Assembly (NCBI GenBank): GCA_000002445.1
Contig: CH464491.1
Span: forward strand, 2,144,001-2,208,000
Source: Trypanosoma brucei
Taxonomy: Eukaryota
Direction of reading: 5' to 3'
DNA: 64,000 nucleotides
Position numbers and translations under genes: made by a program. The notes beneath the pieces were generated by a model that was not told the DNA's origin, did not search any database, and saw only the letters and a program-made list of their open reading frames with translations. This document shows, in pieces, positions 3,617 through 49,340 of this stretch. Every line of letters starts with the position of its first letter. The first letter of the stretch is position 1.

Positions 3617-4183
3617 CTAAAGATACGGCGCCACCGGCCGCTCTGCAGCGCGTTCTTCCTCAGTCTTAACCATGCTATTCTCATAATTCAAATATTTTTC
3701 CCGGGCCATAACATCCTCATCTTTCCGGTTCGCAAGATAATATCGCATCAAACTTTCCTTGTCGAAGAGTGGCTTTGGCATAATTTTCGAGTTTTGCGTT
3801 AATGAAGGGGGAAGCAACCCCGCCTTCGCCAGAAGTGCCCATGGTTTCATCGACAATCGGCATCGCTTAACACCAAACCAATACTTAAAGGCATCGATAT
3901 CCACCGTTGTTAACATAAACAAGTGACGGTCCTGTGCCACAGGGGTATCAGGGGACCAAAGAGACTTCTGCGGGTGTGGGCAGTGCTTTCCAAGATAATG
4001 CAGCAATCGAATATCGGAGTTGCGCCGCTTGTGTGTGTGCTCCACTACGAGATCGTACGACTGGAATTTCCATACAACATGATGTCCACGCATGCGAATG
4101 ATCGGTGCCCCAGGTGCACCCCATAACTGTGGTGAGCGCCGCTTAATTACAGCCCTCGCAAGCACCGTTTCTGTCACTTGCAT
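3617..4183 (-). CDS. Hypothetical basic protein (188 aa); possibly a mitochondrial ribosomal or RNA-associated protein
   Basis: Complete ORF on the PTU strand with lysine/arginine-rich, non-repetitive composition. No diagnostic motif recognised. Confidence 0.4.
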   Translation of the reverse strand: MQVTETVLARAVIKRRSPQLWGAPGAPIIRMRGHHVVWKFQSYDLVVEHTHKRRNSDIRLLHYLGKHCPHPQKSLWSPDTPVAQDRHLFMLTTVDIDAFKYWFGVKRCRLSMKPWALLAKAGLLPPSLTQNSKIMPKPLFDKESLMRYYLANRKDEDVMAREKYLNYENSMVKTEEERAAERPVAPYL

Positions 4184-5677
4184 GTTGCAACGTGTGTAAC
4201 TTCTCAGAAGTTATGTTATGGAATGCCAAAGCACTTTAAACGGCACCAAAAAAAAAAAAAGAAAAAAGAAAGAGGCGAGACTGTGAGAGGAGAAGCGCTA
4301 AAGAACACGGAGGCTCAAAGGCGCGCGCTCAACCTGTCACTTCCTAATGCTGTGGGCACGATACTTCCCCTCTACCCTACAAAAAAAAAAAAAAGATTCT
4401 TTTCTGTCTATAAAGTCGTTTTCAACTGGAATGAAAATAAGGTTGAACAAAAACGAAGAAGAAGCAAAGTGGGGATGGTTTCTTTTTCTTTTTTTTCCCA
4501 CACCCATCGACAAGAGAAAAAAACATCACACACTTCACTTGAAGCAGAAAACTTCCAGTGGCAAGTTGCACTTCCCAAAGGTACAAACCGAGTGAACGCG
4601 TACACGCAAGCACGAAAAAGCATGGGATGAAAGGTGCAACTCCTCCCTCTGCATACATTATGGTTGAACAGTAAACGGTGGTACAAGTATATAAAGCGTA
4701 CAGTAAATAGTTCAAGACACACCACATACTTTTTCACAAGGCAAAAAAGAGGGGGGAAAAAAAAGAGAACAAAAAAAAGCGGTAAAATATTTTTTAAAAA
4801 ACGGATGGCAATACATCAGCCTCCATATATAAATATACACGTATGCACACAGGTATTTGTATTAAAATGTGATTACATTAAGGGGCAATTACAGGGTAAC
4901 CATAGACAAATTTGACTTTACCTGTGGTTTACTCTCGGTACAAGTAAAGAAGAAAAGCGAAGGGAAAAAAAAGGAGGAAGAAATTCCTCCTGACCTCAAC
5001 ACACGACAGTAACAATTAAGACGAAGACACTCCCAGTCACATCAACCGCCGCATAAATTTTTTGTAGTTAATTCTCCTTCTTCCCCTAATTTCCATCTTG
5101 AATCCTTTTTTATACGCATCGCTGAAAAACCAGCTTTTCGCCCAGGTCAAAGCATTAACCCTCAGTACGGTCTCAGTCACAAATACAAATGGTGCTTGCG
5201 TCTCCCTCCTCCATCAGGAACCACATGAGTTCAAGAAAAAGGGGGAATTAAAAAAAAATAATTGTCGGGTTAGAATTGGAAAGGGGAATTGAAAGCGGAG
5301 TGAAGTGGAAGGGAAGAAAAATGACCAACCTAATCGAATATGTACAAATAACACTTAAACAATTATATATAATAATATACGTTGGGTACAATACAATGGC
5401 GTGATTGTTGAATCAAAGCAATAATACAAGAAATAAAAAAAAGAACAAAACATCACAGCCAGTGAAAGAAACAAAAACACTACGAGACACAACCACACAC
5501 GCCAACAGGGTTACCTTTCTTATTTTTTTTTTTGTTACGCCCCCTTTGGGGTTGTTTTTGCTGTTACTGTCATTATTTCTTTTCTTTTCTTTTCTTTTTT
5601 TCTAAAATTTCTTTCGGAAAAAAAAAACCCCCGTTTCTGCCCTGCCGTGTGTTGTTAATGTCGAGCTCACGGAACCT

Positions 5678-6397
5678 TCATACACGACGCAGTCCCCGCC
5701 GCATACCGACAGCGAGAGCCAAATAACCCAAAACCCCCGGCGCAACCCCACCGAATCCGAGTTTTGTCGACACATGTCGCATTCGATTCTCCACAAGATA
5801 ACTTAAGTCGTCGGCATTTACCACACCATCACCATTGGCATCAGCAAGTTCTTTTACCTTTCGCTTGAAAGCCGCCTCCAGCAGCTGTTGCTCGATAAAA
5901 TTCCTCTGCGCCAAAAATTGCAAACCGGTGTAGACGGTGGCTCCGGCCAGTGTAATGAAATATTTCCTCGCATACACGCGTCGAATAACGCGACCGGTGA
6001 GGTATCCGGAGCCAATACCAACCAACCATTGACCAGCCCATGGAATTACCGTGTCGAGAGTGTCGCTGTTGTTACGAATTGCTCCTTTTAGTTTGCTTTC
6101 GTATATGGTTTGAAGGTCCCGTGGCGTGACATGTCCATCACCATCGGCGTCCAGCGCCTTGACAAGTCCTTCCGACATGCGCCTTCCCGCATCGCTCTCC
6201 ACAAACATGCGGACATCCTCATGGGAGGACATTCGGCCAATGAGTTTATCTTTCAAATCAAAAATGTAATTGAAGAGTGGAAGTGTCTCATCTTGTTTGT
6301 GTGGCCTCCCAAATGTTGCAATGTAGTCGAGAGCATTTTCCAAATCTTTAGAATTTAACATTTTCTGCCGCTGTTGCTGGTGTTGTTCCGTCGCCAT
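5678..6397 (-). CDS. FUN14-like membrane protein with two EF-hand-like DxDGDG loops and a C-terminal TM segment
   Basis: Loops DADGDGHVTPRDL and DANGDGVVNADDL. A glycine-zipper segment (GIGSGYLTGR...LAGATVYTGLQFL) resembles the FUN14 domain. Hydrophobic C-terminus GVAPGVLGYLALAVG. A purine-rich tract at 6540-6850 (polypyrimidine on the minus strand) is the likely splice-acceptor region. Confidence 0.5.
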   Translation of the reverse strand: MATEQHQQQRQKMLNSKDLENALDYIATFGRPHKQDETLPLFNYIFDLKDKLIGRMSSHEDVRMFVESDAGRRMSEGLVKALDADGDGHVTPRDLQTIYESKLKGAIRNNSDTLDTVIPWAGQWLVGIGSGYLTGRVIRRVYARKYFITLAGATVYTGLQFLAQRNFIEQQLLEAAFKRKVKELADANGDGVVNADDLSYLVENRMRHVSTKLGFGGVAPGVLGYLALAVGMRRGLRRV

Positions 6398-9300
6398 TTT
6401 TTTTGTTTTTTGTTTGTTTGTTGCTTGTGTTGTTTTGTTTTGTTTTTGCTTCCTAGTAAAAAAACTTCCACACGCACAAGTTATTCCACCCTTTTGGACC
6501 TCTGTTCCTTTTCTTTTTGTCTATGGATATGTTAATATGTATGGCCTTCAAAGGGGTCTTATGAAAGCAAAATAATAATAATAATAATGTTGCCTAAAAC
6601 CTTGAGTTTCCTTCCTTTTTCCCTTAATTAATAATGTTTGCACTAATAACGCAGTAGGGAAGCTGAAGGGGTGTGCAATTGAGAAGATTGAGGGTAAAAG
6701 AGAAAAAGAGAAAAAGAAATATAATAACCCCGCGCATAAGCGTGAAGGACAAAGTGACTGGAAGGGAGAAGGAAAATAAAGAAAAGGAGTGTGAAAAGAG
6801 GGGAAATAAGAGGGGGGGGAGGAAATGAGAGGAACCGTTAAATAGAAGATAGTGAAAGAACGTAAAAATTATTAGTATAAATAATAAAAAGAAACGTAAA
6901 TTTATTAAATGCTCTTCGTGGTGGGTGAAAGGCTACCATCATGCTCAGGGATCATGAAGAAAAGAAGCAGAGGGATTATTTTTTTTTTTTGCGGCATACG
7001 TGTGTTTGTGTTTTTTTTCGGAATGTGGGGAAGTGGCGGGAATTTGTTGTTTTTTTTTTTTTAAAAAAAAGAAAAAGAAAAACAGAAAGAGGAATGAAGC
7101 GCGTTGGAGGGGGGGGGGGGTGGCGGGCACAAGTGGTAATGAACAGCTACATCCCCACAGTTCAATAAACTCGTTTAATGTTGAACGGAGAATAATGAAT
7201 GGTAAAAACAGACAGACAAACAACAACGAAAAATAGAAGAAAAAGACGGAACAAAAATGAATATCGAAGCCCATGGCTTATCTCCACAATACGCAAATAT
7301 ATAAATATATAAATATATTTACATGTATTTATTGACTCCCTCCCCACACACACCTTCCTCCGTACCTCTGTACGCAAAGAAAAGAAAAAAAAAGAAAAAA
7401 TGCGAATGACCGCAGCCATCCACAACTCAAGTGAATGACGAAACAAACGAAAAATAATTCCTCCACTGGGGTTTGCCACCACTCGCAACCCGCTAGTCTC
7501 CCAACCACAATAAATGGAAACAATAGTAAGTGCAATGAGTAGAAAAAACAAAAAAACAAAAAAACAAAAAACAAAAAACAAAAAACATACGAATTGCAAT
7601 TTTAAAAAAAAACGACCAAAAAAGCGGGTAAAACAGGGGAGGATGGAAAGAAAGAGTTTAAGTGCCTCCTGCACTCCTTTTGTTCATTTATTTCCTTTTG
7701 GTTTTTTTTTCGTTTATTCAACGGTACAAACCGAAATATCTGTGTATTATTAGTTACTTTTTGTTCTCCTAAACCTACACTCTCAAACCAAGCAAACAAA
7801 CACAAACACAAGCACACACATACGTACATGAATTAATAACAATAACAATAATAATAGCACTCTGTTTTGTCGTGCATATTATATGTATGATGTATAACAT
7901 ATTTTCTCAAACAAAACAAAACAAAACACTTCAAGCAGTATCCTAAGCGCAAATTTTTTTTTAAAAAACGCCCGTAAAACCGAAAAAAAAACAAAGGGGA
8001 AGAGGAAGGGGGTGGGTGAATACCACCGGCATTGCCAGGTTGAATCAGTACCTCAAGCAACAGTTTGTGATGTATTAATTCAAATATTCGTGCGTGAAGC
8101 GTATAATTGAGTTTCTGGACACGCAAGCGGTGGGAATATGCAACACAAAAGAAAAAAAAGAAAGAAAAAAAAGAAAAAAGTGGTGTGGCATATAACGCAG
8201 TGAAACGGTACAGCAAAAACAGAAGGAATCGCATGAGGCATTCAACAAAAGTAGAAAAGGAAACAAAAGAATGAAACGAATTATTCGCCAACGCGAGTTT
8301 GAGTAAAAGGAAGAGATAATAACAAGTGGTTAACAGCTCGCCTCCCCTCCTCCTATACATACATAAACACATGTGCCTTTCCCCCAAAAAAAACCTTCTC
8401 AAAAAAGTAAGAAACGAAAAAAAAAAGTAAGAAGAAAAAAAAAACACCGAAAACGAGTGAGGAACAAAAAAAAACATCAAAGTAAATTTTAAAAAAAAAG
8501 AAAAGAAAAAAGAAAAAAGAGAAGACAAGCGGAACTCCAAAAGGTCCATTATTTCTCCTCCTCCGTCCCACCGGAACGCACCATTTGCAACAACAACAAC
8601 CAAAAAAAAAAGAAAAAAAATGAAACAAATAATGAGCCGCTCTCATGCAAGAGATAAAAAAAGGAGACGGGGGAGGTCGTATAAACAAGAGTTCGAAAAG
8701 AAACTAAAACGAACAAAAAGAAAAAAAGAAAACAAAAGAAGATATATGCGGTTATTAACAACTTGTCCCGCAGTACGTCCCGCAATATTTCAACATTTGG
8801 CCCCAGTTTGGATAATTTCATCAGACAATTTCATCACCGAACTCCTCATGACTAAATTGACCCAATGCAATTCTCATTATTATTTTATTATTTTGCTCTT
8901 TGTTGTTTCTTTTTTTTTTTGTCGACTTTCTTCACAACCTCAAAACTGTGAAATTCAAAGTGATCACTGTTGTTTGTTTTTCTTTGTTTATTGTACCCAT
9001 GTGAGAAGTACCAAATAAAGCAATGAAAGCAACAACCCCAGCAATAATAGTAATTAGTAATGAGAAAAACAGGAGAGATAATAAAAGAACTTTGAAAAAA
9101 AAAAAGAAAGAGAGAAATAAATACAACAAACAAAACACAACATCAATAAGAAGTAACAATAAATATAATAATTATAATAATTATAATTATGGTAATAATG
9201 ATGATAACAACAACAACAACAACAAATGGCCTAAAGGATGTATCACAGAGCTAACAACTTCCATGCCCCATCCAGAAAAAACTTCCAACTTTGGGCCACA

Positions 9301-9969
9301 TAATGCAAAAGAAGTGACGTAAGAGGTGAGAAGAAAAGAAGGATTTAAAAAGAAAAAAAAGTAAAAAAGAAGTAAAAAAGGATTACGGCAAACAACAACG
9401 ATGAAACCATTGGCCACCTTTTCAAAGTAAGTTTTATTGTTTTCATTTTTTTTTTCATTTTTTTAATTTTTTTTTTTTAAATCTTTCTTTTCTTCTCACC
9501 TCCTTCTTTGGCATACCCCCTGCCGCGGACTGTCACCTTTGCAGAAACTGGCAAGGTACTCGTCCTTTTAAAAAAAAAAAAACAATAAAAGATCAAAAAG
9601 AAAATTTTCGACTTTATCGAACTCTTTTACATGCACCATCAGCTGTGCTTCATTCTATCATTAAATATTTTTCTTTCTTTTGTTCTTTAAATATTACTCG
9701 AACACGTCAATAATTCCCAACAACTGCAATTGAGCCTCACAATACGCCTTGCCTCCTGTTACCGACACCGATGCGACACAACAAAGCCACATGTATATAT
9801 ATATATGTATATATATGTATATATATGACTACAAATACGAACACAGAATTTTTTTTCAGAAATCAGAGTAAAAACGTAAAAAGAAAAAAAAAGATGTTAG
9901 TAAATAAGGTTTCCCCCATCACTATTAGACGCGCCCTTATATTATACATAATTTCTTCCTAAACACACA

Positions 9970-10007
<38 letters not shown>

Positions 10008-11362
10008 TATATTATTATATATATATATTGCCTTATCCCGCCACTAAATAATAATCCATTAATCCACTAACCGACCCCGCATTAATGTCAAGACGATTTC
10101 TTCCCTCATTATTTTTCGTTCATTATTTTTTTTTAAATAATTTGCATATTCTTTCGTTTCTCTTCTTTTAAAAAAAAAAAAAATACTTTAATCATCCCTT
10201 AAAATACGGACAGTCGCGCAAAGCGGATAATGACAGTAACAACAACAACTACTACTACGTAAACGCCAGTATAATTTGCTTTTCAACTTTTTTTTTTTTT
10301 TACATCTGTACCGCAGTAATTGACACCAAAAAAAAAAAAGGTACACACGCAATAATGTGGGGGGGGGGAGAAAAAAAAAAACAGAAAGTTGTCAAAACGG
10401 TAAAAAAAAAAAAATGATGGGCGTCGCCCGCTCCTCCTCCTCCTCCTCTTCCACCTCCTTTTCACACACATCAGCAAATGTAAAGGCAACCGCAAATGGT
10501 AATTTTTCACACATATACACACAAAAAACAATAAATATTGTTGTTATTATTATTATTATTATTAGTTTTCTTTTCTTTAAAAAAAAAAAACATTTGCCGC
10601 AACGTACATACAGGAAAACATATGTGCGGAAAAAAGTAAGGAGGAGGAAATGGTGGGACCAAAATAAAGAAAAAACAAAAAAAAGAGAACAACAACAACA
10701 ATAATAATAATAATAATAACAGTGTTAATAGTAAGATATTATGAACTACATTAATAACGACAATAATAATAATAATAGTAATAATAATTTTAATAGTGAC
10801 TTACAAGGGGGGAAAAAAAAAACCACGGCGCGCACAGACACACAAACACATAAAAACATACACGTGTATGTGTGTATGCCTTCCCTGCTCTATTATTATT
10901 CTTTTTTTTTTTGTAAAATAATTAATTATATATTTTGTTATCATTAATTTGTTTTCTTTTCTTTGTTTCAATATATTTATTTTTCATTCCCTTTTGTTTG
11001 TCCGTTTTGTCAAAAATGCGGGACCCGTATATTTACATCTTTTGTTCCCACACATTCTTTCTTTCCTTCTTTTTTTCCTGCCCCCCCCCACCTCCCCTCA
11101 ACTGTAATGTAACTCACATCACATCACACATTACATGCGCTCAAACTTCACCTGGTCAAAAAAAAAAAAATGATGATAAAATGGGAGACAAACGTAAGAA
11201 CAACAACAAGAAGAAATAAAGTGAAATAAAAAGAAAAGAAAACATCCCGTCAATTTTCCATTTTATTCAACTGCTTGTGCATTTGATCTTATTTCTTTTT
11301 CTTTTCTCCCTCTTTTTCTCTCTTGTCATTATTATTTCTTCACTTCCCCTCTCCATTCCTCC

Positions 11363-11397
<35 letters not shown>

Positions 11398-13593
11398 GGA
11401 GGGGGATGATTTGTTTTTCCCTCAACATATGAAGGCACATCGCCGTTAATTATATAATTGTACTCGTATTTGTATACGCTTGCATGCCTTTACTGCGGCG
11501 TCTCCCTCCCCTGCTCTCCTTTTCCTTTTCCATTTCCTTTAAAAAAAAAAAAGAAATTGTCGAGAAGAGGAACTCCGAAACAAAAAAAAAGGGAGGGAAA
11601 AGACAAAATAAAGAAGATAAAAGCAAAGTAAAGTAAAGTAAAAAAAAAAAAGTAAAGAAAAGAAAAGTAAAATAATGGAAGCGAGGGCGGAGGAAACCAC
11701 TCAATGCAGATGAGCGTGTGAAATATGTGCAAAGGAAACCAAAACCAAAAAGGGGGAAAAAAAGGAAAGAATGGAGGCTGGTGTGCGACTAAAGATAAGA
11801 TCATACAAAATTATGTCAAAATATGAAAACAAAAATTCCCTTTGTCGTTCTTTCTTTTTTCTTTTTTGTTTGATTTCACTCCAGCAGACATATATATATA
11901 TTTTTTTTTAATAATTTTCCTTCTACCATTACCACCATCCAAACCTTTCTCTTCACCCTCTTCCTTTTAACTTCTCTACATGAAACATACAGAAAATATA
12001 TACATTTACCGTATATTCCATGCGCAACATGTGCATATTCCGAATCCGTACACTCGTATACATTTTTATTTTCATTTTTATTTTTATTTTTATTTTTTAA
12101 AAGGGAAAAGAAAAAAACACAAACACAAACACTTTTTAAAGGCCATTTTCGCATTTCCCTCCACCTCCTGCGTCATGTCATATCAAACTGAAAGCGCAAC
12201 CACACATTTTCAAACACGCAACTCGTGATTAATTGGCACGCAACCATTACGACTTTTTTTTTTCACAAAAAAAAAAAAGAAAGAAAATATCAAAGAACGG
12301 GGAAAAGAAGAAGTCCCTTCCCTTCCCATCCCATTTCTCTCGATCTCTTTTTTTTTTGTTGTTTTTGCTTATTTGTTTGTTTCTTTTGTTTTCTTTTTTC
12401 TTCCCCTCTTTCCCTCTTCTTATTTTAATTTTTTTTTTTAAAAAGAAAAAGAAAACAAAAGTTGATTCGTTTCCAATAAATGTCACCACAGCGTCGGTGG
12501 ATGAGGAGGCACTAAAGTGACGTAAGTCGGAGGTGGTAGTGAAGATTAAAAACACGGGAAAAGCGAAAGGGAAAAAAAGAAAAAAAGAAAAGGGGAAGGG
12601 AAAAAAGAAAAAGAAAAAGAATTAATTCCGATGCCACGTCATTACCAAAAATAGGCGTTTTTTTTCTTTTATTTTTCTTTTTAATTTCCTCTTTTTTACT
12701 TCTTCAAAACCTTACAATCCGCAGGGGCGTGTTTTCGTCAAAGTAATAACGACTAAGCCTCCATCACTACGGCAAGCAATGAATTTAAAAAAAAAAAGAA
12801 TCACAAAAATGAATAAAGAATTCAGCGCCTCACAACATAATTGTAGTAATGAAAAGTAATAATGGCTGATACACAACTTCCCAACTTCCTCCTCTCTCTC
12901 ACATGTGGTCGTTCATACTTTTGAATTTTACAAATAAAGACGAGAAGAAAGCAAAAGGAAATCCAACAATAAAAAACAAAAAGGTAAAAAAGAAAGAAAG
13001 AGAAGAAACCCCCTTTTTTTTTCCTGCTGTTTGACACTTATCTTTTCTTTTCTTTTTTTTCTTTTCTTTTCTTTTTTCTCCTCATGCCCCGCCATGTTAT
13101 TCTTCTTTTTTTCCTCCTCCTCCTCCTCCTCCTCCCATCCACATGGTAAGAACAAACACACATACAAAGACACAAACACAGAAGACAAAGGAAAAAAGAA
13201 AAAACAACAACATTATAAAAGGAGAGAAAACAGGTAGCGGTGGCAGTCATAACAGCAGCAGCATCAACATCAACAGCGACATTAACAGCGACAAAGGTAA
13301 AACCATCCCACTAAAAGAATAGTTACTTAGAAAGAGAACAAAAGAAAATGACAAAACAGGACGAAGGCGTGCGCGCGTGTAGTTATCTTTTTTTTTTTTA
13401 AAAAAAAAGAAAAAGGAAAAAAAGGAAAAGAAGAAAGCGGAACAGTCAGTGGGGAGCGGCCGAGCCTGCGGCGTATTAGTGAAGCAAAGGGTCAAAAAGC
13501 ATTTTTTACCGGCAAAAAAAAAAAGTTTCTTATCGGCCAAATCAATAATATCACAAACACATACCACAAAAAAAAAAAAAGGTAACTGACACC
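6398..13593. repeat. 7.2 kb low-complexity spacer (poly-dA/dT, (TA)n, (AAC)n, (AAT)n, purine/pyrimidine tracts) between two same-strand genes
   Basis: No ORF with protein-like composition in any frame. Track ORFs here are Phe/Lys/Asn-rich translations of homopolymer runs. Homopolymers and microsatellites are dense throughout. Confidence 0.85.
9972..10028. repeat. (TA)n / (ATTAT)n microsatellite
   Basis: catatatatatatatatatatatatatatatattatattatattattatatatatatat. Confidence 0.9.
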
Positions 13594-15237
13594 TTAAGAG
13601 AGTAAGCACAGCGGAACTATAACGGCGCCCACGGGGCAATGATCACTCGGACAGTTTGGTGCTGGAAGATTTGTGCTTGATGACAGCCTTAACACATCTG
13701 TACAACCAAGATGCCTCTTGTCTATGAGAATGTGGTCATATACTTTACCTTTACCGCCATCTCCCGGATCCACAAATGATACACGCCGCGGATGGCGTTC
13801 CCTGTAAATTTCATAAACATCCGTTAGAGCCAATGAGTGCCCGGCTGCAGGGGCCGTGAAACCGCTACATGTACCACCACCTCCCGCTCCACAGGGCGAT
13901 TCAACCATTGGGGTCCCTGATTTGCTATTTTCCACATCAACATCAGTGTCGCGTGAAATAGGACTAAAAGCACCAGTTTCCCTACCAGGTGTTCCGCACC
14001 ATGCACCAACATTACTGCTTTCGGGGAGCGAGCCGTTCAAAGCATACGCGATCGGCGGCTCCCACGACTCGGAGTTAAAGTCACCACCGAGCACAACTGC
14101 TACGATTGGACACTCTCCATTTGAGTTTTCTATGTGACTCTCGTGTTCCCCCTTAACTTGTTCAATATAACTCATTACGCGGTGCAGCTGCCACAACTGG
14201 CACCGTGAGCCGCTCCAAAGGAGGTGAAGATTGCACACCACATATATTACATTTGGTTTGTTCAGATCACGCAAAACGGTTATAAGAGCTACATTGTGGG
14301 ACATTCTCCGCAAACTCCGTCGTTCACTTTGTGTGAGGGTCTTATCAGCATTAGCTATTTCATTGAGTCGAATGGGAATAACTTCAAGTAACTCAAAGCG
14401 GTCCTTCAAGAAAAATGTAGCAACACCCTCCAAATCAGACCGCGGTGGCTCCACCGTTTTCTCAGCAGCGACATCATTAGAACGGCGGCTCTCCACAGTT
14501 CCTGAAGGGGAAGGCTTGGAAGACGAAGTGGTCACTTCTTGGAAAACTACGGCCTGAGCTCCGTCAGTTGAAGAATCAAAACTTGTATGGCGAGGTCGGC
14601 CCGACAAATCTGTGACCACTACATGGTTACCGATGAAGCCATGCTTTTCCCGCAAATTCTCGCCCAGTAAGCCGGGTTTCCCAAACACATCAACACTGAT
14701 TTCTTGTAGCAAAATGATGTCAGGATCTGCCTGAAGTAACTCCTGTTCTGCAAATCCACAGCGGTAGTCCTCCGCGAGGGCAAACGGAGGGCAGCGCGGA
14801 TAGCGCTGCATGGAGAGAAACCGCTGCGCTAAAATATTGTAACATACAAGCCTAACGACTCCGTTGTTTGACAATGCCTGTGATGAGACACCCAAATCTG
14901 TCTTGGACCATCCACGGAAGACGGTTCTATTGCTGTTACAATCCCCTTCAATGGCCTCTGGACAATCGTTCTGCAGTGTCTCGACACATAAACTGAGAAA
15001 ACTCCCGCCGAGCAATTTTTCGCGTCGTTCCTGAAGTGTTGTCCGATGAGTCGGTGATGCTGTTGATACTCCCAACGAAGGGAAACCTTCTGCCACTTGG
15101 TCATCAGTTGGTTGGAATGATGCGAGTCCAGAAGAATTCGTGTCATTCCGTGTCATGGGTGGACTGGATTCATCCTTTCCGATATCGAGGAAATGATGCG
15201 GGATTGCAAGTGGGGAGTTAGGCATTGTTGTATACAT
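13594..15237 (-). CDS. Endonuclease/exonuclease/phosphatase (EEP) family nuclease of the CCR4/nocturnin/PDE12 type
   Basis: LVCYNILAQRF...YRCGFAEQELLQADPDIILLQEI matches the CCR4 catalytic N and E motifs. C-terminal SDHCPV matches the EEP SDHxP motif. 547-aa uninterrupted ORF. Confidence 0.8.
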   Translation of the reverse strand: MYTTMPNSPLAIPHHFLDIGKDESSPPMTRNDTNSSGLASFQPTDDQVAEGFPSLGVSTASPTHRTTLQERREKLLGGSFLSLCVETLQNDCPEAIEGDCNSNRTVFRGWSKTDLGVSSQALSNNGVVRLVCYNILAQRFLSMQRYPRCPPFALAEDYRCGFAEQELLQADPDIILLQEISVDVFGKPGLLGENLREKHGFIGNHVVVTDLSGRPRHTSFDSSTDGAQAVVFQEVTTSSSKPSPSGTVESRRSNDVAAEKTVEPPRSDLEGVATFFLKDRFELLEVIPIRLNEIANADKTLTQSERRSLRRMSHNVALITVLRDLNKPNVIYVVCNLHLLWSGSRCQLWQLHRVMSYIEQVKGEHESHIENSNGECPIVAVVLGGDFNSESWEPPIAYALNGSLPESSNVGAWCGTPGRETGAFSPISRDTDVDVENSKSGTPMVESPCGAGGGGTCSGFTAPAAGHSLALTDVYEIYRERHPRRVSFVDPGDGGKGKVYDHILIDKRHLGCTDVLRLSSSTNLPAPNCPSDHCPVGAVIVPLCLLS

Positions 15238-15337
15238 GAATGAAATGCCCCACTAATAAGTCTTAAAATTACCTATCCTTCCCCCGTTCCCTATGCGTTC
15301 AACTTCTCTTCTTTTTTTTCTCTCTCTTTTTTTTTCT

Positions 15338-15340
<3 letters not shown>

Positions 15341-15368
<28 letters not shown>
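15341..15368. repeat. (TA)14 microsatellite in the spacer upstream of the EEP nuclease gene
   Basis: tatatatatatatatatatatatatata. Confidence 0.9.
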
Positions 15369-16092
15369 CTTGATTCCCGCTCTATCGGTTTCTTCTTTCC
15401 CTCTCGTGCCCCTTTTCGAAGCCCTTTCTCACGGGAAAAGATACAAAATATCTGTGTGTATCTATGTACGTGTACAGAAAGGTATTGCTTTCTTTCTGAC
15501 CGAGCTGCGTATCGAGTGATATAAACCGTCGGGTGAGCGGAAGGGGGAAAAGTAAAAATGGGAGAAATAGAAATGGAAGCGCGAGCGGGAGAAAGGGGGA
15601 GTGAAGAAAAGAAGGTGAGAGGACGAACTTTAAAATTTAAAAAAAAAGAAACTACAGCAAATAACATGCACAGAAGAAAAAAACGCAACAGAAAGTGCCT
15701 ACGTAAATTCGCAGGATAATATAATTTCACTTGGAAACGACCCGAACATGAGCCAAACTATATGTTCTCTACAGCGTGCTGTGCAACGTATATCTATAGA
15801 TCCGGAACCGCAGAGCGGTGCAAACTTAGATGAGCAACAACGAGGAAACAGTCCCTCACATGTATGTCCACCGTAAGTGGAAACACCCGGCTTGCGCGAG
15901 CCCGAGACGCCTGTTGCGCGTTTCATACGCTATTTTTCAGGTAATCGCCCGAGTATATACGATAGGTAACGCCCCTATGGTTAAATGTACAGGATACTTC
16001 AAAGGGGGGAAGAAGGGAGAGACAAGTAACGAAATAACAAAAACAAAAACAAAAAGTAAAACGCGCGCGAATATTGTGTTCTGCGCAGAAAA

Positions 16093-34661: not shown

Positions 34662-35906
34662 TCACGGGATAGTATCAGGATGTTCGCCCCTCGTTAGACG
34701 TATTAGCCTCTCCTTGGCACGCAGGACATCGGCTGAATATCCCATCTCCTTTGCTCTGGCCACCGTGTCCCACGCAACCTTGATTACCTCGTTGTTCCTG
34801 TCACCATGGGCACCCGAACCACGGACAGGACACGGTTTAGGCGCCCTGTCCTCCTCACTTCCTTGCCTTCGAACACAATAGAAGGCACCTTCAGCATCAA
34901 AAGTAGAGCGGTTCACATCCTCATGGACCCGGAGTGACCGCCGAAGTCGGCGGTAAACGTTTGGTTTGGGAAACAAAGAATCAGAACCGCCGACCGACTT
35001 TCGAACATTCAAAATTTCTGGAGACGGGACTTCTTCGCTATCCCCTTCCCCCGTGTCACCTCGCAGTTTCGGAGGAGTCGTAAATGTGCGATCGTCATCG
35101 TCGGGAAAATATTTTGCGGTCCAGTCCACGAGAGAAGGGTCAAGTGTTTCCTTATTTTCCAGGGCGCGCTGCCGCAGAAACGGGAACGCAGAGTACGAAG
35201 AGGTTCGTTCCTCTTTGTGTGTCAAGTCCATCATCGCCGGTGTGTTTTCCAGATTTGCCCACTCACCCTGGAGACGCCGTTTCTGGGCGGCATCTTCCTG
35301 TGACGCGACATTAACCCCGCAACGCTCCCCACATTCGCCGGTGTGCCTATCTTCTTCATGAAGCGTCGCCGCGCGCTCGGAGCACACTGTCTCTTGGCAC
35401 CATCTGGATTTTTTGCTCCCTTTATCTGACTCCTTCAAAGCGGTCATGATGTGAGTTCGCAGATGTTTGGGTGAGGAAAATGCTGCAGCAGCAACAAACG
35501 AACGATACTCTGCATCCATCTGTTCACAGAGACGCATATACTTTCTGGCGTTGCGGGTTTCAAGCATGGCAGCCCCAGTGGTATCTTTAAGATAGTCTTG
35601 AAGCAAAGAGGACAACTTTTCCCGCATCGCCCTATCCTTAATATTTTGCCAATTCTCCTTTCGGCCATATAGTCGCTCGGCATCATCCATGTACGTCCGC
35701 CTCCGGTCCTGCAACCACGGGACGGTTGGAAGGGGTCGTAGCTTAGAAAACCGCATGTCTCGGTGGAAATTCCCCTTCTCTCGCACTGTCTGGGGATTAG
35801 AAGACCGGCGCTTGTATGGCCGCTTGGCATCTACTTTCCAGTGCCGCTGCGTGTGGACAAAGGCAGGCTGCCACCTAGGGATGGTTTTAACACATTGCCG
35901 TATCAT
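34662..35906 (-). CDS. Hypothetical protein (414 aa)
   Basis: Long uninterrupted ORF on the PTU strand with charged, non-repetitive composition and no recognised motif. Confidence 0.5.
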   Translation of the reverse strand: MIRQCVKTIPRWQPAFVHTQRHWKVDAKRPYKRRSSNPQTVREKGNFHRDMRFSKLRPLPTVPWLQDRRRTYMDDAERLYGRKENWQNIKDRAMREKLSSLLQDYLKDTTGAAMLETRNARKYMRLCEQMDAEYRSFVAAAAFSSPKHLRTHIMTALKESDKGSKKSRWCQETVCSERAATLHEEDRHTGECGERCGVNVASQEDAAQKRRLQGEWANLENTPAMMDLTHKEERTSSYSAFPFLRQRALENKETLDPSLVDWTAKYFPDDDDRTFTTPPKLRGDTGEGDSEEVPSPEILNVRKSVGGSDSLFPKPNVYRRLRRSLRVHEDVNRSTFDAEGAFYCVRRQGSEEDRAPKPCPVRGSGAHGDRNNEVIKVAWDTVARAKEMGYSADVLRAKERLIRLTRGEHPDTIP

Positions 35907-43289: not shown

Positions 43290-43589
43290 ACCCTGAATAC
43301 GAAGTTATAGCACCGTACCGTGTGCAAACCACTCGCTTAAATATTAATAACTTGGTTGTCTCAAAGGTTAGGAAATACAAGGCAACCAAAAAAGGGATGG
43401 TTATGCAAAGGGGATGGCAAGTTAGTTTGCAACGCGCCAACTTTGACATAGAGGTGAGAACAGATGAATATCACCGCAGGAACATGTGGACACACGCCCA
43501 TCCTTGCCTATGTTGCAGAAATGCCCAGTAACCCGGAAGCTCGAGGGGGCAAAAAACTATCGATTGCACCGCCGAATATATAATCCGTA

Positions 43590-44300
43590 TCGCATCTATA
43601 CCACTTCCGCAAGACAAAGGGCCACCTTCACCACAAACCTTTTAAAAAAATATACACCGTCGTCCAACCAACACAAGACAAAAGCGCCACACACCTCCCA
43701 AGCTCCGGCGTTGGTACTCAATTGCGCAAGTTCGTCGCGAAAACGGAACTGAAAGACCTGCGCTAAACTACAAACACGAACGGGTAATGGAAAAGAACCA
43801 CTGATCGACGTTTCGTGGCGGCTCCGCCTCCTCACCACCCCTCTCTGTTTTTCCTCCTCCATTCAATAGAGGCACTCCACCTCAACAAAATATACGAAAA
43901 AGAAAAAGGTGCAATCAGAGAGTTTGGTTGAAACGTGCTGCTCACGTATCACCCTCCGAAGCGAAAGCATGTCCAGTAGAACTAACATGGACAGGCATTC
44001 ACACATACTCCACTAAAAATAGAAGTCAGAGGGGGCAGTTGCCCACGCACGACGGCCACCACCCACCACAGCAGCGGTAAACAGGGAGACTCTACGAAGG
44101 GCAAATACAGTGCCACATCACCGCCCCCATGGGTGTTCCCCCCGCCCCTGACGAGACGGAAACATCATTTCTGTGACGCCGCCAACCGGCTCGCATAGAA
44201 AGGAACAGAGGAACAAGGCCCTCCTTCGAGCATTGGCACAGCGGTGACACCTGACATCAGACAACCAGAGCAACCAGGTGCGGCAACAGTCGAGCACCAC
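43590..44300 (-). promoter_or_regulatory. AC-rich tract on the top strand (GT-rich on the minus strand) with C-runs at 44121-44149; candidate GT-rich promoter for the minus-strand PTU
   Basis: ccaccacccaccacagcagc, cgtccaaccaacacaagacaaaagcgccacacacctccc, ccgcccccatgggtgttccccccgcccc. Lies just upstream of the first minus-strand gene. Confidence 0.45.
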
Positions 44301-46684
44301 AGGAAGGTGCCTACTTTAAGCACTGCCTAATGCCAGCGAAAGTGCACACTTTTATGCTCTGTTGACGGGGTTATCTTGCCCCTCAGCGGGGATACCAAGC
44401 AGAACCCAGTTCCCGCTCCCATCATCGGAGCTTAACGAAACGGAGGGACACCTCTCAGGCGGAAACGTGTGATCCTCCCGGCAATGCTCTGCGAGGGCGC
44501 GCTGGACCTTTCCGTCACGCAGGAGGTGATCGCAAAGATTATGGGAACCGCGCCATTCACCTCCTATGGTTGCAAACACACGGGGCTTGCCCATTTTAGA
44601 GATAAAAGCACCAGGGCGTCAACACACGTTCGTTTTGGAGTGGTGTAGCTACGAGTCTGAGAACAAACACAGATTTGGGAAGCGTCACTGTTGCAATGGT
44701 GCCTGAAAGTAGTGAACAGCATGCTGTGACATATTTCCCTTTCCCCGACAACTCTAACGTGAGCACGGGAAGGTCGGAGTTACTGGGAGAAATAAAGGTC
44801 CACGGCTATTTTGAGCGGATTCGAATTGTCGCCCTGCTGCCGGAACTCGCGCGCCCCAAAGGAAGAGAGTGAGAGAAGCTGATATTAAATTTGGCAACTG
44901 GAGAAGAGTTTAATGGTCACCGGCAGTGAAGACCTAATGTGACACACAACACTGGGAGACAGGCTGTTTCACACAAACGTTACCTATTTCTGGCGTTGTG
45001 AGGTGATCGTTCAGAATGTGGTGCGGAACCGTAACAGCTACCACAGTTGGATCACCTCCAATGTAGCAGTGGGGCGCGATATGAAAAGGATAATGTACTT
45101 CAAAACTCCACAACCTTTTACTTCCTCAGAAAAGGGGGCTGGTTGGCCCAAATTACTGAAAGGAACGCGCAATTAAGCCCCGTAAATAGGGGAAAGGTGG
45201 AGTGGACGGCACTTGAAGACTCCAACGAGGGCATTACATCTGTTGTTCGCCCGTTGACATCAAATACAATCCCTAATAGGGGCGACATGCTGCCACAACA
45301 ATGGGTGCCGGAACAGAGAGTCCGTGAAAGTAAGGCAAATCAACGCAGGAGCCTAGCGAAAAGACTAGCCTTCATTAGGTTGGGAAAAAATGTTTTGAAC
45401 CCTAGCGATGCCGGCCACATCAACGTGGTGTCAGGGTCCAGTACCCCGTATCATCGGGGGAAGCCAAGAGCTAGCAGCGTTCCTCTCATGGGGAACACTG
45501 CTGTGCTCCGGCTACGGCATCATACAGCACAGGGATCAGCAGCGTCTTGCTGGGACACCGTTTTTCATTTGTCGGTCCCTGGGCACGTGGCTAGCGTGCC
45601 ATCAGCAGTATCATCCGCACTAAGATGCTGCTGTCCGGTGATGATGTTTCGAATGATGTATTTTTAGGGTGTCGAGGGGGAATGCTGCCAAATCATCCGT
45701 CACTGAAGGGCGAAACTGGATTTGACCGAGGGTGAGTCCACCGCCTGCTCGTCATCTATCATCGCTCAGGCAAGAAGTGAGTGCACGGTGACGAAAAAAT
45801 GATAGACACAAGTTGTATGTAGATACGTATACGTAGCATTCTACAAAGAATCCAACAATTCCACCAACGAATGTTGCCATCACTGAATACTGTCCGTTTA
45901 AGCCCATTTTCAACGCGGTTACAATAAAGAGTCCCTCGGAGAGGCGTTTGTTGTACTAGAGAAAGGGGGGGATGAAACTTCTAACATAAAGTTAGCCTCC
46001 CTACGTAAAACTGGCAGGGCTTTGATGTCCAAACGGAGATTCCTGTTGTCTCACCGTAGATCCACAATCAGGCGCCTCGTTGAGGTAGAGAAGCTGAGCA
46101 TGCACGCCCACTGGACCAGAATTGAGTCGAGTGGGAAAGGCTACAGCAGCATTCTCCCGCATGTAGCGTAGCAGATGCACTGCCAAACAAATATCATAGG
46201 ATGTCCACAGGTGCGTGCAAGTGCGCCGTTAGGAACATCAACCACATCAAAATGCACAGCAATGCCGGTGTCAAAGTGAGCCCGCATCTAGCCCAGGCAG
46301 CGCCAAGGAAAATACCGATGGGTTTACGAAGCCGAAGCATATTTTATTTGGCAGCACGTTAGCCCAGGGGAAGTGACCTTCCGTTTCCTCAGCCGTGCCA
46401 AGAATTTTCGCCTCGGAGTAAGTCAGTTCCATCTTCTTTCCCGCTCGCCCATTAGGGCTGGTCGTGGCTTTAAGGTGGAAGATGCATCTGTTCTCATTAT
46501 TAAGACTCTGTCTGAGTGGAGGCACGTGGCTCTAGCACTACTAGACACGAAATTGTTTGCACAGCAGTGCGTTCTGTAAGATTCAACAGCCAAGCAGTGA
46601 GTTCCATTTTCCTTCCTTGTGGAAAGAGGGGTTCATTATGGAATGTCCGGCCCATGTCATTGAGACATATTCTTCCGGACGCCT

Positions 46685-46699
46685 GGGGGGGGGGGGGGC
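46685..46699 (+). repeat. G15 homopolymer in the middle of the strand-switch region
   Basis: gcctggggggggggggggggctc. Guanine runs on the coding strand are the one motif reported as enriched at trypanosome Pol II start regions. Confidence 0.9.
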
Positions 46700-48479: not shown

Positions 48480-49340
48480 CTGAGGTTAGCACCGCTGCCA
48501 AATGCGGTGCGTCCGCGTCGTTTGCCAAAGGTTCGTTGAGTTTGTGACCTTTTGTAGCGGCGTCGTCCCGCCGTTAGCATTGCTTGGATATCCTCTGCCG
48601 GGGAGTGGGTGCCAGAAGACTCACCCAACTGCATTATCCCTGAAAGGCGCCAGGGTGGGAGACGCCGACGCTGGGAACGCTGACACTTGGCTGTCGCGGG
48701 CCATTCCGCGCAATTGGGCGGCTTTCTGTGTAAACCTGCAGGCGCGAGGGGTTGGACTGGTGACGGTGGGCTTGTCGTATGGTTCTCCCAGCGTCGTTGT
48801 TAGACAGGTCCTGGGGTGGGGCTGTGGTGGTAACGAGTTGCGCCTGTATGGCTTTTGTCGCTCCTCAGTGCTTTGCCGGGTGTGGGGAGTGTCTGTCCCC
48901 CTTTCTGCCTTTACGCCGTGTTCCGTGGATGATTCCATTTTTTCGCTTTTGCGCTACCGTATATTTCGTGCGTGCGCGTCACGCTCCACCTGAGGTGCAG
49001 GCTGTGTGTACTGGCTTCGGCTTACCCTTCCCGGGTTTGGGCGTCTCACCTCCGCTTGGGAGTTGGGGGGTACGTCGGCTAGTTTTGGTTTTGCCGGTCC
49101 CACAAACAAGCGAACGGGGACGGCGTGTTTTGGCAGGTTTTCTACTTTTCCGATACTTATAGAAGTGTGCTGCTATCATATCTCCTCCATGTGATGGGAA
49201 AGCATGGGCGAACTACTGGCGATTGTTCAGTTCTACTTGTGACCGGGTGACAGTGGTAACCAAGCATTCATGTCGGAGCGACGGGGTGTCTGGTACTACA
49301 CACCTCCTCAATGTTTTTTCCTTAAAAAAAGAATTGCATT
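48480..49340 (+). promoter_or_regulatory. GT-rich tract on the top strand immediately upstream of the first plus-strand gene; candidate GT-rich Pol II promoter
   Basis: Strong G+T skew: gcgtccgcgtcgtttgccaaaggttcgttgagtttgtgacc...ggtgacggtgggcttgtcgtatggttctc...ggggtggggctgtggtggt...gggtgtggggagtgtctgtc...ggtttgggcgtctc. Confidence 0.5.

What the first reader, a model, noticed from the sequence alone, without database searches (positions are those of the whole stretch)
6398..13593. Unusually long (7.2 kb) low-complexity spacer downstream of the CCR4/nocturnin-type nuclease gene
The nuclease gene (13594-15237, minus strand) and the next gene downstream (5678-6397, minus strand) are separated by 7.2 kb. 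The spacer is homopolymer, (TA)n, (AAC)n, (AAT)n and purine/pyrimidine tracts with no coding potential. The clearest splice-acceptor-like polypyrimidine block for the downstream gene sits at 6.5-6.85 kb. So the nuclease mRNA would carry a multi-kilobase 3' UTR unless internal processing sites are used. There are many internal polypyrimidine tracts on the minus strand, for example 8400-8530. In trypanosomes very long 3' UTRs mark tightly regulated mRNAs. Alternatively the region could give rise to processed non-coding RNAs.
Basis: partly seen in the sequence, partly recalled or inferred. Interest (0 to 1): 0.5.

Follow-up and report, generated by a model that had tools for sequence, protein, structure and literature searches.

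The report
Very long trypanosome 3' UTR spacer
A genuine 7.2-kb stretch of simple, non-coding sequence follows a nuclease gene on Trypanosoma brucei chromosome 11, and it most likely acts as an unusually long regulatory tail (3' UTR) of that gene's mRNA, which is an extreme example of a known trypanosome habit and not a new kind of element.

Summary
The window is T. brucei TREU927 chromosome 11 (v4 2,144,001-2,208,000). The nuclease is Tb927.11.7820, the EF-hand gene is Tb927.11.7800, and 7,196 bp with no Ns lie between them. That is 3.2 times the next-longest of 15 spacers in the same transcription unit. Tandem repeats cover 24% of it, and it has 54 sense-strand polypyrimidine tracts against about 8 expected.

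Three Trypanozoon assemblies give 7.20-7.27 kb, so it is not an artefact. Public annotation places one ORF inside it (Tb927.11.7810, 7833-8549). That ORF has weak codon bias and is frameshifted in T. b. gambiense and T. equiperdum. A ribosome-profiling study removed it as non-coding, although sense poly(A)+ RNA covers it.

Tb927.11.7820 is one of 33 genes whose stage regulation works mainly through translation, higher in bloodstream forms.

The best reading is a roughly 6.8-kb 3' UTR of the nuclease mRNA, ending at an annotated poly(A) site near 6769, with internal splice signals mostly ignored. This matches the RBP10/DRBD12 class. I could not show that the transcript is continuous. The main rival is a shorter UTR plus a separate non-coding RNA. 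Either way it is a new member of a known kind, of low to moderate interest.

The parts
6398..13593 (-). The 7,196-bp non-coding, low-complexity inter-CDS region. It equals Tb927_11_01_v4 2,150,398-2,157,593. It is the candidate 3' UTR of Tb927.11.7820 plus the processing signals for Tb927.11.7800.
   Evidence: The v4 anchor comes (Tb11.02.5780 CDS 2178662-2179906 equals window 34662-35906).
13594..15237 (-). Tb927.11.7820 (old ID inferred as Tb11.02.5700). A 547-aa EEP-family nuclease of the CCR4/PDE12/nocturnin type. Its translation is bloodstream-biased.
5678..6397 (-). Tb927.11.7800 (Tb11.02.5680). A 239-aa EF-hand protein and the next real gene downstream. Its own 3' UTR is 1,104 nt, with the major poly(A) site at window 4574.
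   Evidence: The spacing in Kolev's 3' UTR table reproduces the ORF ends exactly.
7833..8549 (-). Annotated 'hypothetical protein' Tb927.11.7810 (238 aa, Phe/Leu-rich). It is a spurious ORF inside the spacer. It takes over the annotated distal poly(A) site.
   Evidence: Its length and position match v5 CDS 2210088-2210804. The codon score is 0.09. It is frameshifted or stopped in T. equiperdum and T. b. gambiense. Jensen et al. removed it as non-coding: CDS Ribo 99, mRNA 998, RRS at background.
6558..6834 (-). Distal processing block. Sense PPTs lie at 6834-6793, 6789-6760, 6719-6690 and 6587-6563, with candidate AG acceptors at 6758, 6663 and 6558. The annotated poly(A) site is at about 6769 (v5.1 2,209,024).
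   Evidence: The 106-nt distance from 6769 to the AG at 6663 fits the published median poly(A)-to-splice-site distance of 142 nt.
8401..8742 (-). Internal PPT cluster: 8742-8706, 8676-8649, 8636-8602, 8534-8491, 8474-8449 and 8444-8401. AGs lie at 8704, 8642, 8561 and 8398. This is the most likely place for internal trans-splicing if a separate 'Tb927.11.7810' RNA exists.
   Evidence: Use of these sites is inferred, not shown.
11577..11696 (-). The longest internal sense PPT, 120 nt with single purine interruptions, followed by an AG at 11573.
12556..12621 (-). A 66-nt internal sense PPT, with the next AG at 12512.
9973..10002 (.). An (AT)15 repeat, with a second TATGTATATA-type array at 9794-9827. 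(AU)n repeats raise bloodstream-form expression in the RBP10 3' UTR context.
9323..9502 (-). Inverted repeat with 60-nt arms and a 60-nt loop. It predicts a long hairpin in the sense RNA.
   Evidence: 83% complementary. (-61.5 kcal/mol, z = -5.2). It is present in T. equiperdum.

Best explanation
The interval is an ordinary but extreme piece of a T. brucei RNA polymerase II polycistron. It lies between the EEP nuclease gene Tb927.11.7820 and the EF-hand gene Tb927.11.7800, is transcribed on the minus strand, and is non-coding.

Shown:
- It is real and it encodes no protein.
- Its sense strand is present in poly(A)+ RNA at least over 7833-8549.
- A poly(A) site is annotated at about 6769, inside the polypyrimidine block that precedes Tb927.11.7800.

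Inferred:
- That poly(A) site is coupled, as usual in trypanosomes, to trans-splicing of Tb927.11.7800 about 100-200 nt downstream.
- It is the main 3' end of the nuclease mRNA. This gives a 3' UTR of about 6.8 kb and an mRNA of about 8.6-8.8 kb.
- The database credits the site to Tb927.11.7810 only because annotation pipelines assign a poly(A) site to the nearest upstream annotated CDS.
- The 54 internal sense PPTs are mostly kept silent in the nucleus by PPT-binding proteins, following the DRBD18 model described for RBP10 and DRBD12. Minor use of them gives shorter isoforms and UTR-derived fragments.
- The long U-rich, repeat-rich UTR, with its (AU)15, A- and U-runs and a long hairpin, carries redundant binding sites that hold translation down in procyclic forms and allow it in bloodstream forms.
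For: - Identity and reality of the locus. Three assemblies give 7,196, 7,226 and 7,271 bp.
- No coding capacity.
- Sense poly(A)+ RNA reaches far into the spacer. There are 998 mRNA reads on 717 nt at 7833-8549, summed over all of that study's mRNA libraries. The six Jensen PCF and cultured-BSF libraries listed give 1,196 reads on the 1,644-nt nuclease CDS. The library sets are not identical, so this shows only that the densities are of the same order.
- The distal poly(A) site is at v5.1 2,209,024, about window 6769, within the PPT block.
- UTR pipelines assign a poly(A) site to the next upstream annotated CDS. Siegel et al. discarded any 3' UTR above 5 kb. A 6.8-kb UTR would therefore have been missed or mis-assigned.
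- Kolev et al. list no independent novel transcript anywhere between v4 2,104,641 and 2,200,639.
- Regulation is at the level of translation, bloodstream over procyclic, in two datasets.
- There is precedent for 7.3-kb and roughly 8-kb mRNAs whose internal PPTs are masked by DRBD18 and whose regulatory elements are redundant.
- The spacer after this gene's orthologue is the longest in its neighbourhood in T. cruzi (2,832 bp), T. theileri (1,951 bp) and T. vivax (over 3,444 bp). A long downstream region is therefore an old property of this gene, although no sequence is conserved.
Against: - I found no read, northern or nanopore molecule that links the nuclease CDS to the distal site.
- Jensen et al. 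did not label Tb927.11.7810 'no SL; no distinct RNA', which is their label for ORFs sitting in another gene's 3' UTR. They gave it a unique note instead. That leaves room for a distinct RNA.
- Their '3' UTR mRNA' count for Tb927.11.7810 is only 71. If that count covers the full 1,064-nt annotated UTR, RNA drops sharply below 7833. If it covers their default 100 nt, it does not.
- PPT plus AG is normally enough for trans-splicing, and this region has many strong examples.
- The spacer diverges between subspecies as fast as or faster than neighbouring spacers: 2.2% substitutions and 9.9 indel events per kb. There is no sign of unusual constraint.
Confidence: 0.5

Rival explanations
1. Constitutive internal processing. 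The nuclease mRNA ends at an internal poly(A) site, for example about 8.8 kb, giving a 3' UTR of about 4.8 kb or less. A separate trans-spliced, polyadenylated non-coding RNA of about 1.8-2 kb runs from an acceptor near 8.56-8.70 kb to the poly(A) site at about 6769. This RNA is what the databases call Tb927.11.7810. It would belong to the class of about 1,400 intergenic lncRNAs of T. brucei.
For: - A PPT cluster with AGs sits just upstream of the Tb927.11.7810 ORF (8742-8602; AGs at 8704, 8642 and 8561).
- Tb927.11.7810 carries its own annotated 3' UTR.
- Jensen et al. did not file it under 'no SL; no distinct RNA'.
- It has mRNA reads but only background ribosome signal.
- T. brucei lncRNAs are intergenic, GC-poor, and both SL-spliced and polyadenylated.
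Against: - There is no Tb11.NT transcript in this interval in Kolev et al.. However, an RNA overlapping an annotated CDS would not have been listed as novel.
- The annotated poly(A) site would be credited to Tb927.11.7810 whichever RNA it ends.
- I could not retrieve any mapped spliced-leader site for it.
Confidence: 0.35
2. The spacer holds a real protein-coding gene, either Tb927.11.7810 or another small ORF. The nuclease's own spacer would then be shorter than it looks.
For: - TriTrypDB and GenBank annotate a 'hypothetical protein' here (accession gap EAN79744).
- T. b. gambiense has three small ORFs called in the interval.
Against: - The ORF is broken by indels not divisible by three and by stop codons in T. 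equiperdum and T. b. gambiense. The flanking nuclease CDS differs at 0 and 6 of 1,644 sites in the same two genomes.
- Codon score is 0.09, against at least 0.23 for real genes.
- There is no Pfam hit.
- Ribosome footprints are at background and on both strands, and the ORF was removed as non-coding.
- No conserved peptide appears in other trypanosomes.
- No other assembly records a gene with this exact product.
Confidence: 0.02
3. The region acts mainly as a DNA or chromatin element and not as an RNA tail. Examples would be a site of transcription attenuation or pausing, an R-loop or fragile microsatellite zone, or a replication-related element. Its length would then be a by-product of microsatellite expansion with little function.
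For: - Density of homopolymers, T(n)A(n) junctions and purine/pyrimidine tracts is extreme on both strands. There are 32 antisense PPTs against 2.2 expected.
- Divergence is fast and rich in indels, with no conserved islands.
- The region grew from about 2-3 kb in other trypanosomes to 7.2 kb in Trypanozoon.
Against: - It lies in the middle of a unidirectional unit, about 30 kb from the strand-switch region where such elements are normally found.
- Downstream genes are expressed and have mapped poly(A) sites.
- Length is held at 7.20-7.27 kb across three Trypanozoon genomes despite 73 indel events.
- The upstream gene is post-transcriptionally regulated.
Confidence: 0.08
4. The spacer is an assembly or scaffolding artefact.
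For: Low-complexity sequence is prone to mis-assembly. The v4 and v5.1 coordinates differ by about 8 bp across the region. The T. equiperdum copy holds 140 Ns.
Against: - The window contains no Ns.
- Three assemblies are colinear along the whole length at 97.6-99.6% identity, with lengths of 7,196, 7,226 and 7,271 bp.
Confidence: 0.01

Closest known systems
Extraordinarily long 3' UTRs of T. brucei regulatory mRNAs: RBP10 (Tb927.8.2780, 7.3-kb 3' UTR), DRBD12 (about 8.4-kb mRNA) and ZC3H22
   Same: - Length is about 7 kb.
- Both have many low-complexity tracts, (AU)n repeats, poly(A) and poly(U) runs, and many internal PPTs that would be splice signals if used.
- Both sit inside a polycistron.
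- The upstream gene shows bloodstream-biased, largely translational regulation.
   Different: - Continuity of the mRNA is proven for RBP10 and DRBD12 by northern and single-molecule FISH, and is not proven here.
- The gene encodes an EEP nuclease. The class is usually said to encode RNA-binding proteins or kinases.
- A spurious annotated ORF hides the UTR in the databases.
- No regulatory fragment has been tested.
Trans-spliced, polyadenylated intergenic lncRNAs of T. brucei (1,428 in Guegan et al. 2022, including grumpy, plus the Kolev 2010 Tb.NT transcripts)
   Same: It is GC-poor, intergenic and non-coding. It is present in poly(A)+ RNA, poorly associated with ribosomes, and flanked by normal PPT/AG and poly(A) signals.
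   Different: - I could retrieve no mapped SL site or full-length read for this locus.
- It is not in Kolev's list of novel transcripts.
- No snoRNA or other Rfam family lies inside it.
'Hypothetical protein, unlikely' ORFs lying in the UTRs of T. brucei genes
   Same: Tb927.11.7810 behaves like them. It is low-complexity, not conserved and not translated, and the ribosome-profiling study deleted it.
   Different: It is annotated 'hypothetical protein', without 'unlikely'. The reason given for its removal was unique to it and not the standard 'no SL; no distinct RNA'.

Membership tests
Very long 3' UTR mRNA of T. brucei (RBP10/DRBD12 class) | One mature mRNA runs from the CDS to a poly(A) site several kb downstream | not testable with these tools
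   No read-level RNA data could be reached. Indirect evidence only: sense poly(A)+ reads lie 5.0-5.8 kb past the stop codon, and there is a distal poly(A) site at about 6769.
Very long 3' UTR mRNA of T. brucei (RBP10/DRBD12 class) | No translated ORF between the stop codon and the distal poly(A) site | tested here: met
   Codon scores, frameshifts in sister taxa, no conserved peptides, and ribosome profiling at background.
Very long 3' UTR mRNA of T. brucei (RBP10/DRBD12 class) | Internal polypyrimidine tracts and low-complexity tracts within the UTR | tested here: met
   54 sense PPTs of at least 20 nt against 8.4 expected. An (AU)15 repeat and A/U runs.
Very long 3' UTR mRNA of T. brucei (RBP10/DRBD12 class) | Developmentally regulated expression of the encoded protein | tested here: met
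   From the literature, not from my own data. Jensen 2014 Table 2 gives log2 TE of +1.94 and +3.12. Raw counts in two datasets agree.
Very long 3' UTR mRNA of T. brucei (RBP10/DRBD12 class) | UTR fragments confer the regulation on a reporter, and DRBD18 loss unmasks internal sites | not testable with these tools
   This needs reporter assays and DRBD18 RNAi read data. The supplements of the DRBD18 paper are not held.
Trans-spliced polyadenylated intergenic lncRNA | Its own spliced-leader acceptor site and poly(A) site bound a transcript longer than 200 nt | tested here: inconclusive
   A poly(A) site is annotated. No SL site could be retrieved, because the relevant supplements were empty, truncated or not held. 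It is absent from Kolev's list of novel transcripts.
Trans-spliced polyadenylated intergenic lncRNA | Low coding potential and poor ribosome association | tested here: met
Protein-coding gene (Tb927.11.7810) | Reading frame conserved in close relatives | tested here: not met
   There are 7-, 1- and 2-nt indels in T. equiperdum, ten indels in T. b. gambiense, and in-frame stops in both.
Protein-coding gene (Tb927.11.7810) | Codon usage and ribosome footprints typical of a CDS | tested here: not met
   Score 0.09 against at least 0.23 for real genes. RRS is at background, with footprints on both strands.
CCR4/PDE12/nocturnin-type EEP nuclease (the flanking gene) | EEP catalytic domain carrying the deadenylase-branch motifs | tested here: met
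   PF03372 scores 34.3 bits against a cutoff of 24.5. Best PDB hits are PDE12 at 1.5e-11, CNOT6/6L at 1e-10, Ccr4 and nocturnin. Aligned motifs are YNILA, DIILLQE, EGvATFf, NlHLlW and GDFNS.
Canonical CCR4 (CCR4-NOT subunit) | N-terminal leucine-rich repeat that docks on CAF1 | tested here: not met
   A Pfam scan at E <= 0.01 returns only PF03372. The best PDB match is PDE12, not CCR4. The protein is CCR4-like in fold, not a demonstrated CCR4.
Known structured RNA families (snoRNA, tRNA and others) inside the spacer | A match at or above the Rfam gathering score, or an ARAGORN call | tested here: not met
   There are 0 matches at gathering score and 0 tRNAs. Only low-complexity or hairpin-driven matches far below threshold appear at E <= 1.

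The most novel reading that the evidence does not exclude
The spacer is not just a passive tail. It is cut into one or more independent, stage-regulated, spliced-leader-capped non-coding RNAs. One of them carries the roughly 180-nt inverted repeat at 9323-9502. That repeat could feed the trypanosome RNAi pathway or act in cis on the neighbouring deadenylase-like gene. The growth from about 2-3 kb in other trypanosomes to 7.2 kb in the T. brucei group would then mark the birth of new regulatory RNAs.
Probability: 0.12. Interest if true: 0.5.

Novelty: new member of a known kind. Interest (0 to 1): 0.25.

Why it matters
If the whole interval is the nuclease's 3' UTR, Tb927.11.7820 joins RBP10 and DRBD12 among the longest 3' UTRs in T. 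brucei.

It would be an attractive case for two reasons:
- Its stage control is almost purely translational.
- It would have to keep 54 internal splice-signal-like tracts silent. That makes it a clean substrate for asking how trypanosomes tell real processing sites from decoys.

There is also a practical annotation point. A spurious ORF (Tb927.11.7810) captures the distal poly(A) site, so genome-wide UTR tables probably under-report this UTR and others like it.

None of this changes current understanding. The phenomenon, its likely mechanism and the lncRNA alternative are all already described.

Tried and rejected
Structured RNAs:
- The Rfam gathering scan of the whole window and ARAGORN found nothing.
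- The Rfam E-value scan of the spacer gave only sub-threshold matches to plant or animal miRNA precursors and to Plasmodium RNase P. Hairpins and A/T-rich sequence drive these matches, and I rejected them.

Cross-species comparison:
- Sensitive blastn of the spacer against T. cruzi, T. theileri, T. vivax and T. rangeli gave only short low-complexity hits in both orientations, with no colinearity. Only T. cruzi and T. rangeli are colinear with each other.
- tblastx between spacers, and tblastn of the 119-aa ORF called in T. vivax, found no conserved peptide.
- The T. congolense orthologue has no contig on record.

Looking for transcripts in assemblies:
- An exact look-up of the Tb927.11.7810 product in public assemblies found nothing.
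- The Logan contig carrying the EF-hand gene breaks at homopolymers and runs past the mapped poly(A) site. It therefore says nothing about transcript ends.

Looking for mapped splice and poly(A) sites:
- Siegel 2010 and the DRBD18 paper have no held files.
- Nilsson 2010 has no entries for these genes.
- Kolev's 3' UTR table covers only 1,902 genes and skips from Tb11.02.5680 to Tb11.02.5750.
- Trenaman 2024 has no row for Tb927.11.7820.
- Full-text searches for the old gene IDs found nothing.

Other:
- My first alignment of the hairpin to T. equiperdum used the wrong coordinates. I redid it.
- I considered a retroposon remnant, a centromere or an origin. I dropped these because there is no long ORF, Pfam domain or long repeat unit, and the region lies inside a unidirectional unit.

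Full report
WHERE THE WINDOW COMES FROM. The nuclease ORF (13594-15237, minus) is 100% identical to the 'endonuclease/exonuclease/phosphatase, putative' protein of T. brucei TREU927 and T. equiperdum. The neighbouring 838-aa ORF is ribonucleotide reductase large chain, Tb927.11.7840 or Tb11.02.5720. A ribosome-profiling paper names Tb927.11.7820 as 'endonuclease/exonuclease/phosphatase'. Kolev et al. give the Tb11.02.5780 CDS as v4 2178662-2179906, which is the window ORF 34662-35906. The window is therefore Tb927_11_01_v4 2,144,001-2,208,000. This anchor reproduces the 3' UTR lengths in Kolev's table for three other genes. The genes on the minus strand run MCM2, a small ORF, RNR1 (.7840), a 270-aa protein (.7830, consistent with its annotated UTR), the nuclease (.7820), the spacer, and the EF-hand protein (.7800, or Tb11.02.5680). 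A divergent strand-switch region lies about 30 kb away, at 43.3-48.5 kb.

THE OBSERVATION. All the coordinates are right. The gap is 7,196 bp with no Ns.
- Tandem-repeat coverage is 23.9%. It is 4.4% in the other 14 spacers of the same unit, 0.6% in CDS and 1.1% in a shuffle.
- Homopolymers of at least 6 bases make up 12.2%, against 4.1% and 0.6%.
- The other spacers measure 202-2,251 bp.
- Published medians for T. brucei 3' UTRs are 388-400 nt, with about 6% above 2 kb.
- The sense strand has 54 polypyrimidine tracts of at least 20 nt against 8.4 +/- 2.5 in dinucleotide shuffles. The antisense strand has 32 against 2.2.
- The blocks at 6.56-6.83 kb and 8.40-8.53 kb are as described.

NOT AN ARTEFACT, NOT A GENE. 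T. equiperdum has 7,226 bp here and T. b. gambiense has 7,271 bp. Both are colinear with the window over its whole length, at 99.6% and 97.6% identity with 36 and 73 indel events.

GenBank accession numbers skip one entry between the two flanking genes in TREU927 and three in gambiense. So the annotation places ORFs in the spacer. The TREU927 one is Tb927.11.7810. Its v5 CDS, 2210088-2210804, is 717 nt, exactly the window ORF 7833-8549. Four lines of evidence say it does not code:
- It is Phe/Leu-rich low-complexity sequence with a codon frame-contrast score of 0.09, against 0.23-0.44 for 18 real genes.
- Frameshifts and stops break it in both sister taxa. The nuclease CDS differs at 0 and 6 of 1,644 positions in the same two genomes.
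- It has no Pfam hit.
- Jensen et al. deleted it as having 'no evidence of coding potential', with ribosome release score at background and footprints on both strands.

No other spacer ORF scores like a gene except an antisense poly-Asn run made by (AAT/AAC)n. tblastx finds no conserved peptide in the matching spacers of other trypanosomes. There are no tRNAs and no Rfam families.

WHAT THE RNA DATA SAY.
- (a) Jensen et al. counted 998 mRNA reads fully inside the 717-nt Tb927.11.7810 ORF, summed over all their poly(A)+ libraries. Stable sense RNA therefore exists 5.0-5.8 kb beyond the nuclease stop codon. The six Jensen procyclic and cultured-bloodstream libraries give 1,196 reads on the 1,644-nt nuclease CDS. 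The library sets differ, so I conclude only that the densities are of the same order.
- (b) The 3' UTR annotated for Tb927.11.7810 is v5.1 2209024-2210087. This places a poly(A) site at about window 6769. That is inside the PPT block and 106 nt upstream of the AG at 6663. The fit with the published median poly(A)-to-splice distance of 142 nt is good.
- (c) UTR pipelines give a poly(A) site to the nearest upstream annotated CDS, and Siegel et al. threw away 3' UTRs above 5 kb. A 6.8-kb nuclease UTR would therefore have been credited to the spurious ORF.
- (d) Kolev et al. list no independent 'new transcript' between v4 2,104,641 and 2,200,639. Their 3' UTR table covers only 1,902 genes and has no entry for the nuclease.
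- (e) I could not retrieve any spliced-leader site for either gene.

REGULATION OF THE UPSTREAM GENE. [quoted passage not shown] Raw counts from two laboratories agree.

| Dataset | Measure | Procyclic | Bloodstream |
|---|---|---|---|
| Jensen | ribosome footprints | 165 / 199 / 199 | 1549 / 1481 / 1062 |
| Silicotryp | ribosome footprints | 221 / 445 / 108 | 1185 / 3589 |
| Jensen | mRNA | 95 / 237 / 49 | 386 / 92 / 337 |
| Silicotryp | mRNA | 14 / 41 / 49 | 146 / 177 |

The counts are raw and not normalised. The footprint difference is larger than the mRNA difference in both sets.

COMPARATIVE ANATOMY. Gene order is conserved in T. cruzi, T. theileri and T. vivax. In each, the spacer after the nuclease orthologue is the longest in the fetched neighbourhood:
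- T. cruzi: 2,832 bp, against 624-1,855 bp for its neighbours.
- T. theileri: 1,951 bp, against 297-1,179 bp.
- T. vivax: over 3,444 bp, where the contig ends.
- T. rangeli: the contig ends after 1,911 bp without reaching the next gene.

No sequence is conserved beyond the T. brucei group. Between T. b. brucei and T. b. gambiense the spacer changes at 2.2% of sites with 9.9 indel events per kb. That is at the fast end of neighbouring spacers (0.9-2.5%) and about six times the nuclease CDS (0.36%). What is conserved is that the spacer is long, not what it says. This suits a UTR built from redundant short low-specificity sites. It equally suits neutral microsatellite growth.

MECHANISM. In trypanosomes the poly(A) site of one mRNA is set by the PPT and AG used to trans-splice the next one. 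I rate two readings.
- The best-supported reading (about 0.5) has the nuclease mRNA running to about 6769. This gives a 3' UTR of about 6.8 kb and an mRNA of about 8.6-8.8 kb. The internal PPTs would be masked as proposed for DRBD18 on RBP10 (7.3-kb UTR) and DRBD12 (8.4-kb mRNA). The UTR would set bloodstream-biased translation. It contains (AU)15 at 9973-10002, and that element raises bloodstream expression in the RBP10 context, though not out of context.
- The main rival (about 0.35) is constitutive use of an internal site, most plausibly the PPT/AG cluster at 8742-8561. That would give a shorter nuclease UTR and a separate non-coding RNA of about 2 kb, of the kind catalogued by Guegan et al.. 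Two details lean this way. Jensen et al. did not use their standard label for ORFs buried in another gene's UTR. Their '3' UTR mRNA' count is low at 71, but its meaning depends on whether a 100-nt or a 1,064-nt window was used.

A real gene (0.02), an artefact (0.01) and a primarily DNA-level element (0.08) are unlikely, for the reasons above.

THE FLANKING NUCLEASE. The 'CCR4/nocturnin-type' label is fair at the fold level. PF03372 scores above its cutoff. The best solved relatives are PDE12, CNOT6/6L, yeast Ccr4 and nocturnin. The catalytic-motif regions align. No leucine-rich repeat is detected, so the protein is not a canonical CCR4-NOT subunit.

VERDICT. Whether there is one long UTR or a UTR plus a lncRNA remains open. 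Both outcomes belong to well-described classes, so this is a new member of a known kind with low to moderate interest.

Noticed in passing
window 9323-9382 and 9443-9502: Inverted repeat with 60-nt arms, 83% complementary, and a 60-nt loop. The sense RNA (9520 to 9300) folds to -61.5 kcal/mol, z = -5.2 against shuffles. Apart from A-run lengths and one substitution outside the arms it is identical in T. equiperdum. It could be a dsRNA source in an RNAi-competent organism.
   Followed up: partly
window ~7045, 7957, 8480, 9551, 10152, 10562, 11521, 12247, 12423, 13382: A recurring junction where a T-run abuts an A-run or A/G-run (TTTTTTTTTTTTAAAAAAAAGAAAAAG), seen as repeat families D8, D11 and D15. 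It reads much the same on both strands. I do not know its significance.
   Followed up: no
window 7833-8549: The annotated 'hypothetical protein' Tb927.11.7810 is almost certainly not a gene. It captures the distal poly(A) site in UTR annotation, so genome-wide 3' UTR tables probably understate the UTR of Tb927.11.7820.
   Followed up: yes
L002 11636-14467; L003 11633-13583; L006 11621-15064: In T. cruzi, T. theileri and T. vivax the spacer after the nuclease orthologue is also the longest in its neighbourhood (2,832 bp, 1,951 bp and over 3,444 bp). No sequence is shared with T. brucei.
   Followed up: partly
window 10300-10900: The middle of the spacer is its fastest-changing part between T. 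b. brucei and T. b. gambiense (21-22 substitutions per 300 nt). The last 2.7 kb (9240-6400) and the first 150 nt change least (1-6 per 300 nt).
   Followed up: no
window ~43300-48500: Divergent strand-switch region between the minus- and plus-strand units. The two ORFs annotated there (Tb927.11.7980 and .7990) were flagged 'no SL; no distinct RNA; in dSSR' by Jensen et al.
   Followed up: no
P0003 (T. rangeli), P0005 (T. conorhini): The orthologues of this EEP nuclease are named 'putative trans-sialidase' in two genome records. This looks like an annotation error, since they share 45% identity and only the PF03372 domain with the query.
   Followed up: no
window ~4123-6941 (v5.1 2206378-2209196): A genomic fragment in the Trenaman 2024 reporter screen is scored 'increased' (log2 about 2.4). 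It spans the whole EF-hand gene and only 172 nt of the spacer's distal end, so it cannot be credited to the spacer.
   Followed up: no
window 8549-16092: Converting v5.1 coordinates to window coordinates needs an offset of 2,202,255 at 8549 and 2,202,263 at 16092. The two reference versions therefore differ by about 8 bp inside the spacer or nuclease region, presumably in homopolymer lengths.
   Followed up: no
window 7108-7121, 6814-6821, 11087-11095: Runs of G12, G8 and C9 sit inside otherwise A/T-rich sequence.
   Followed up: no
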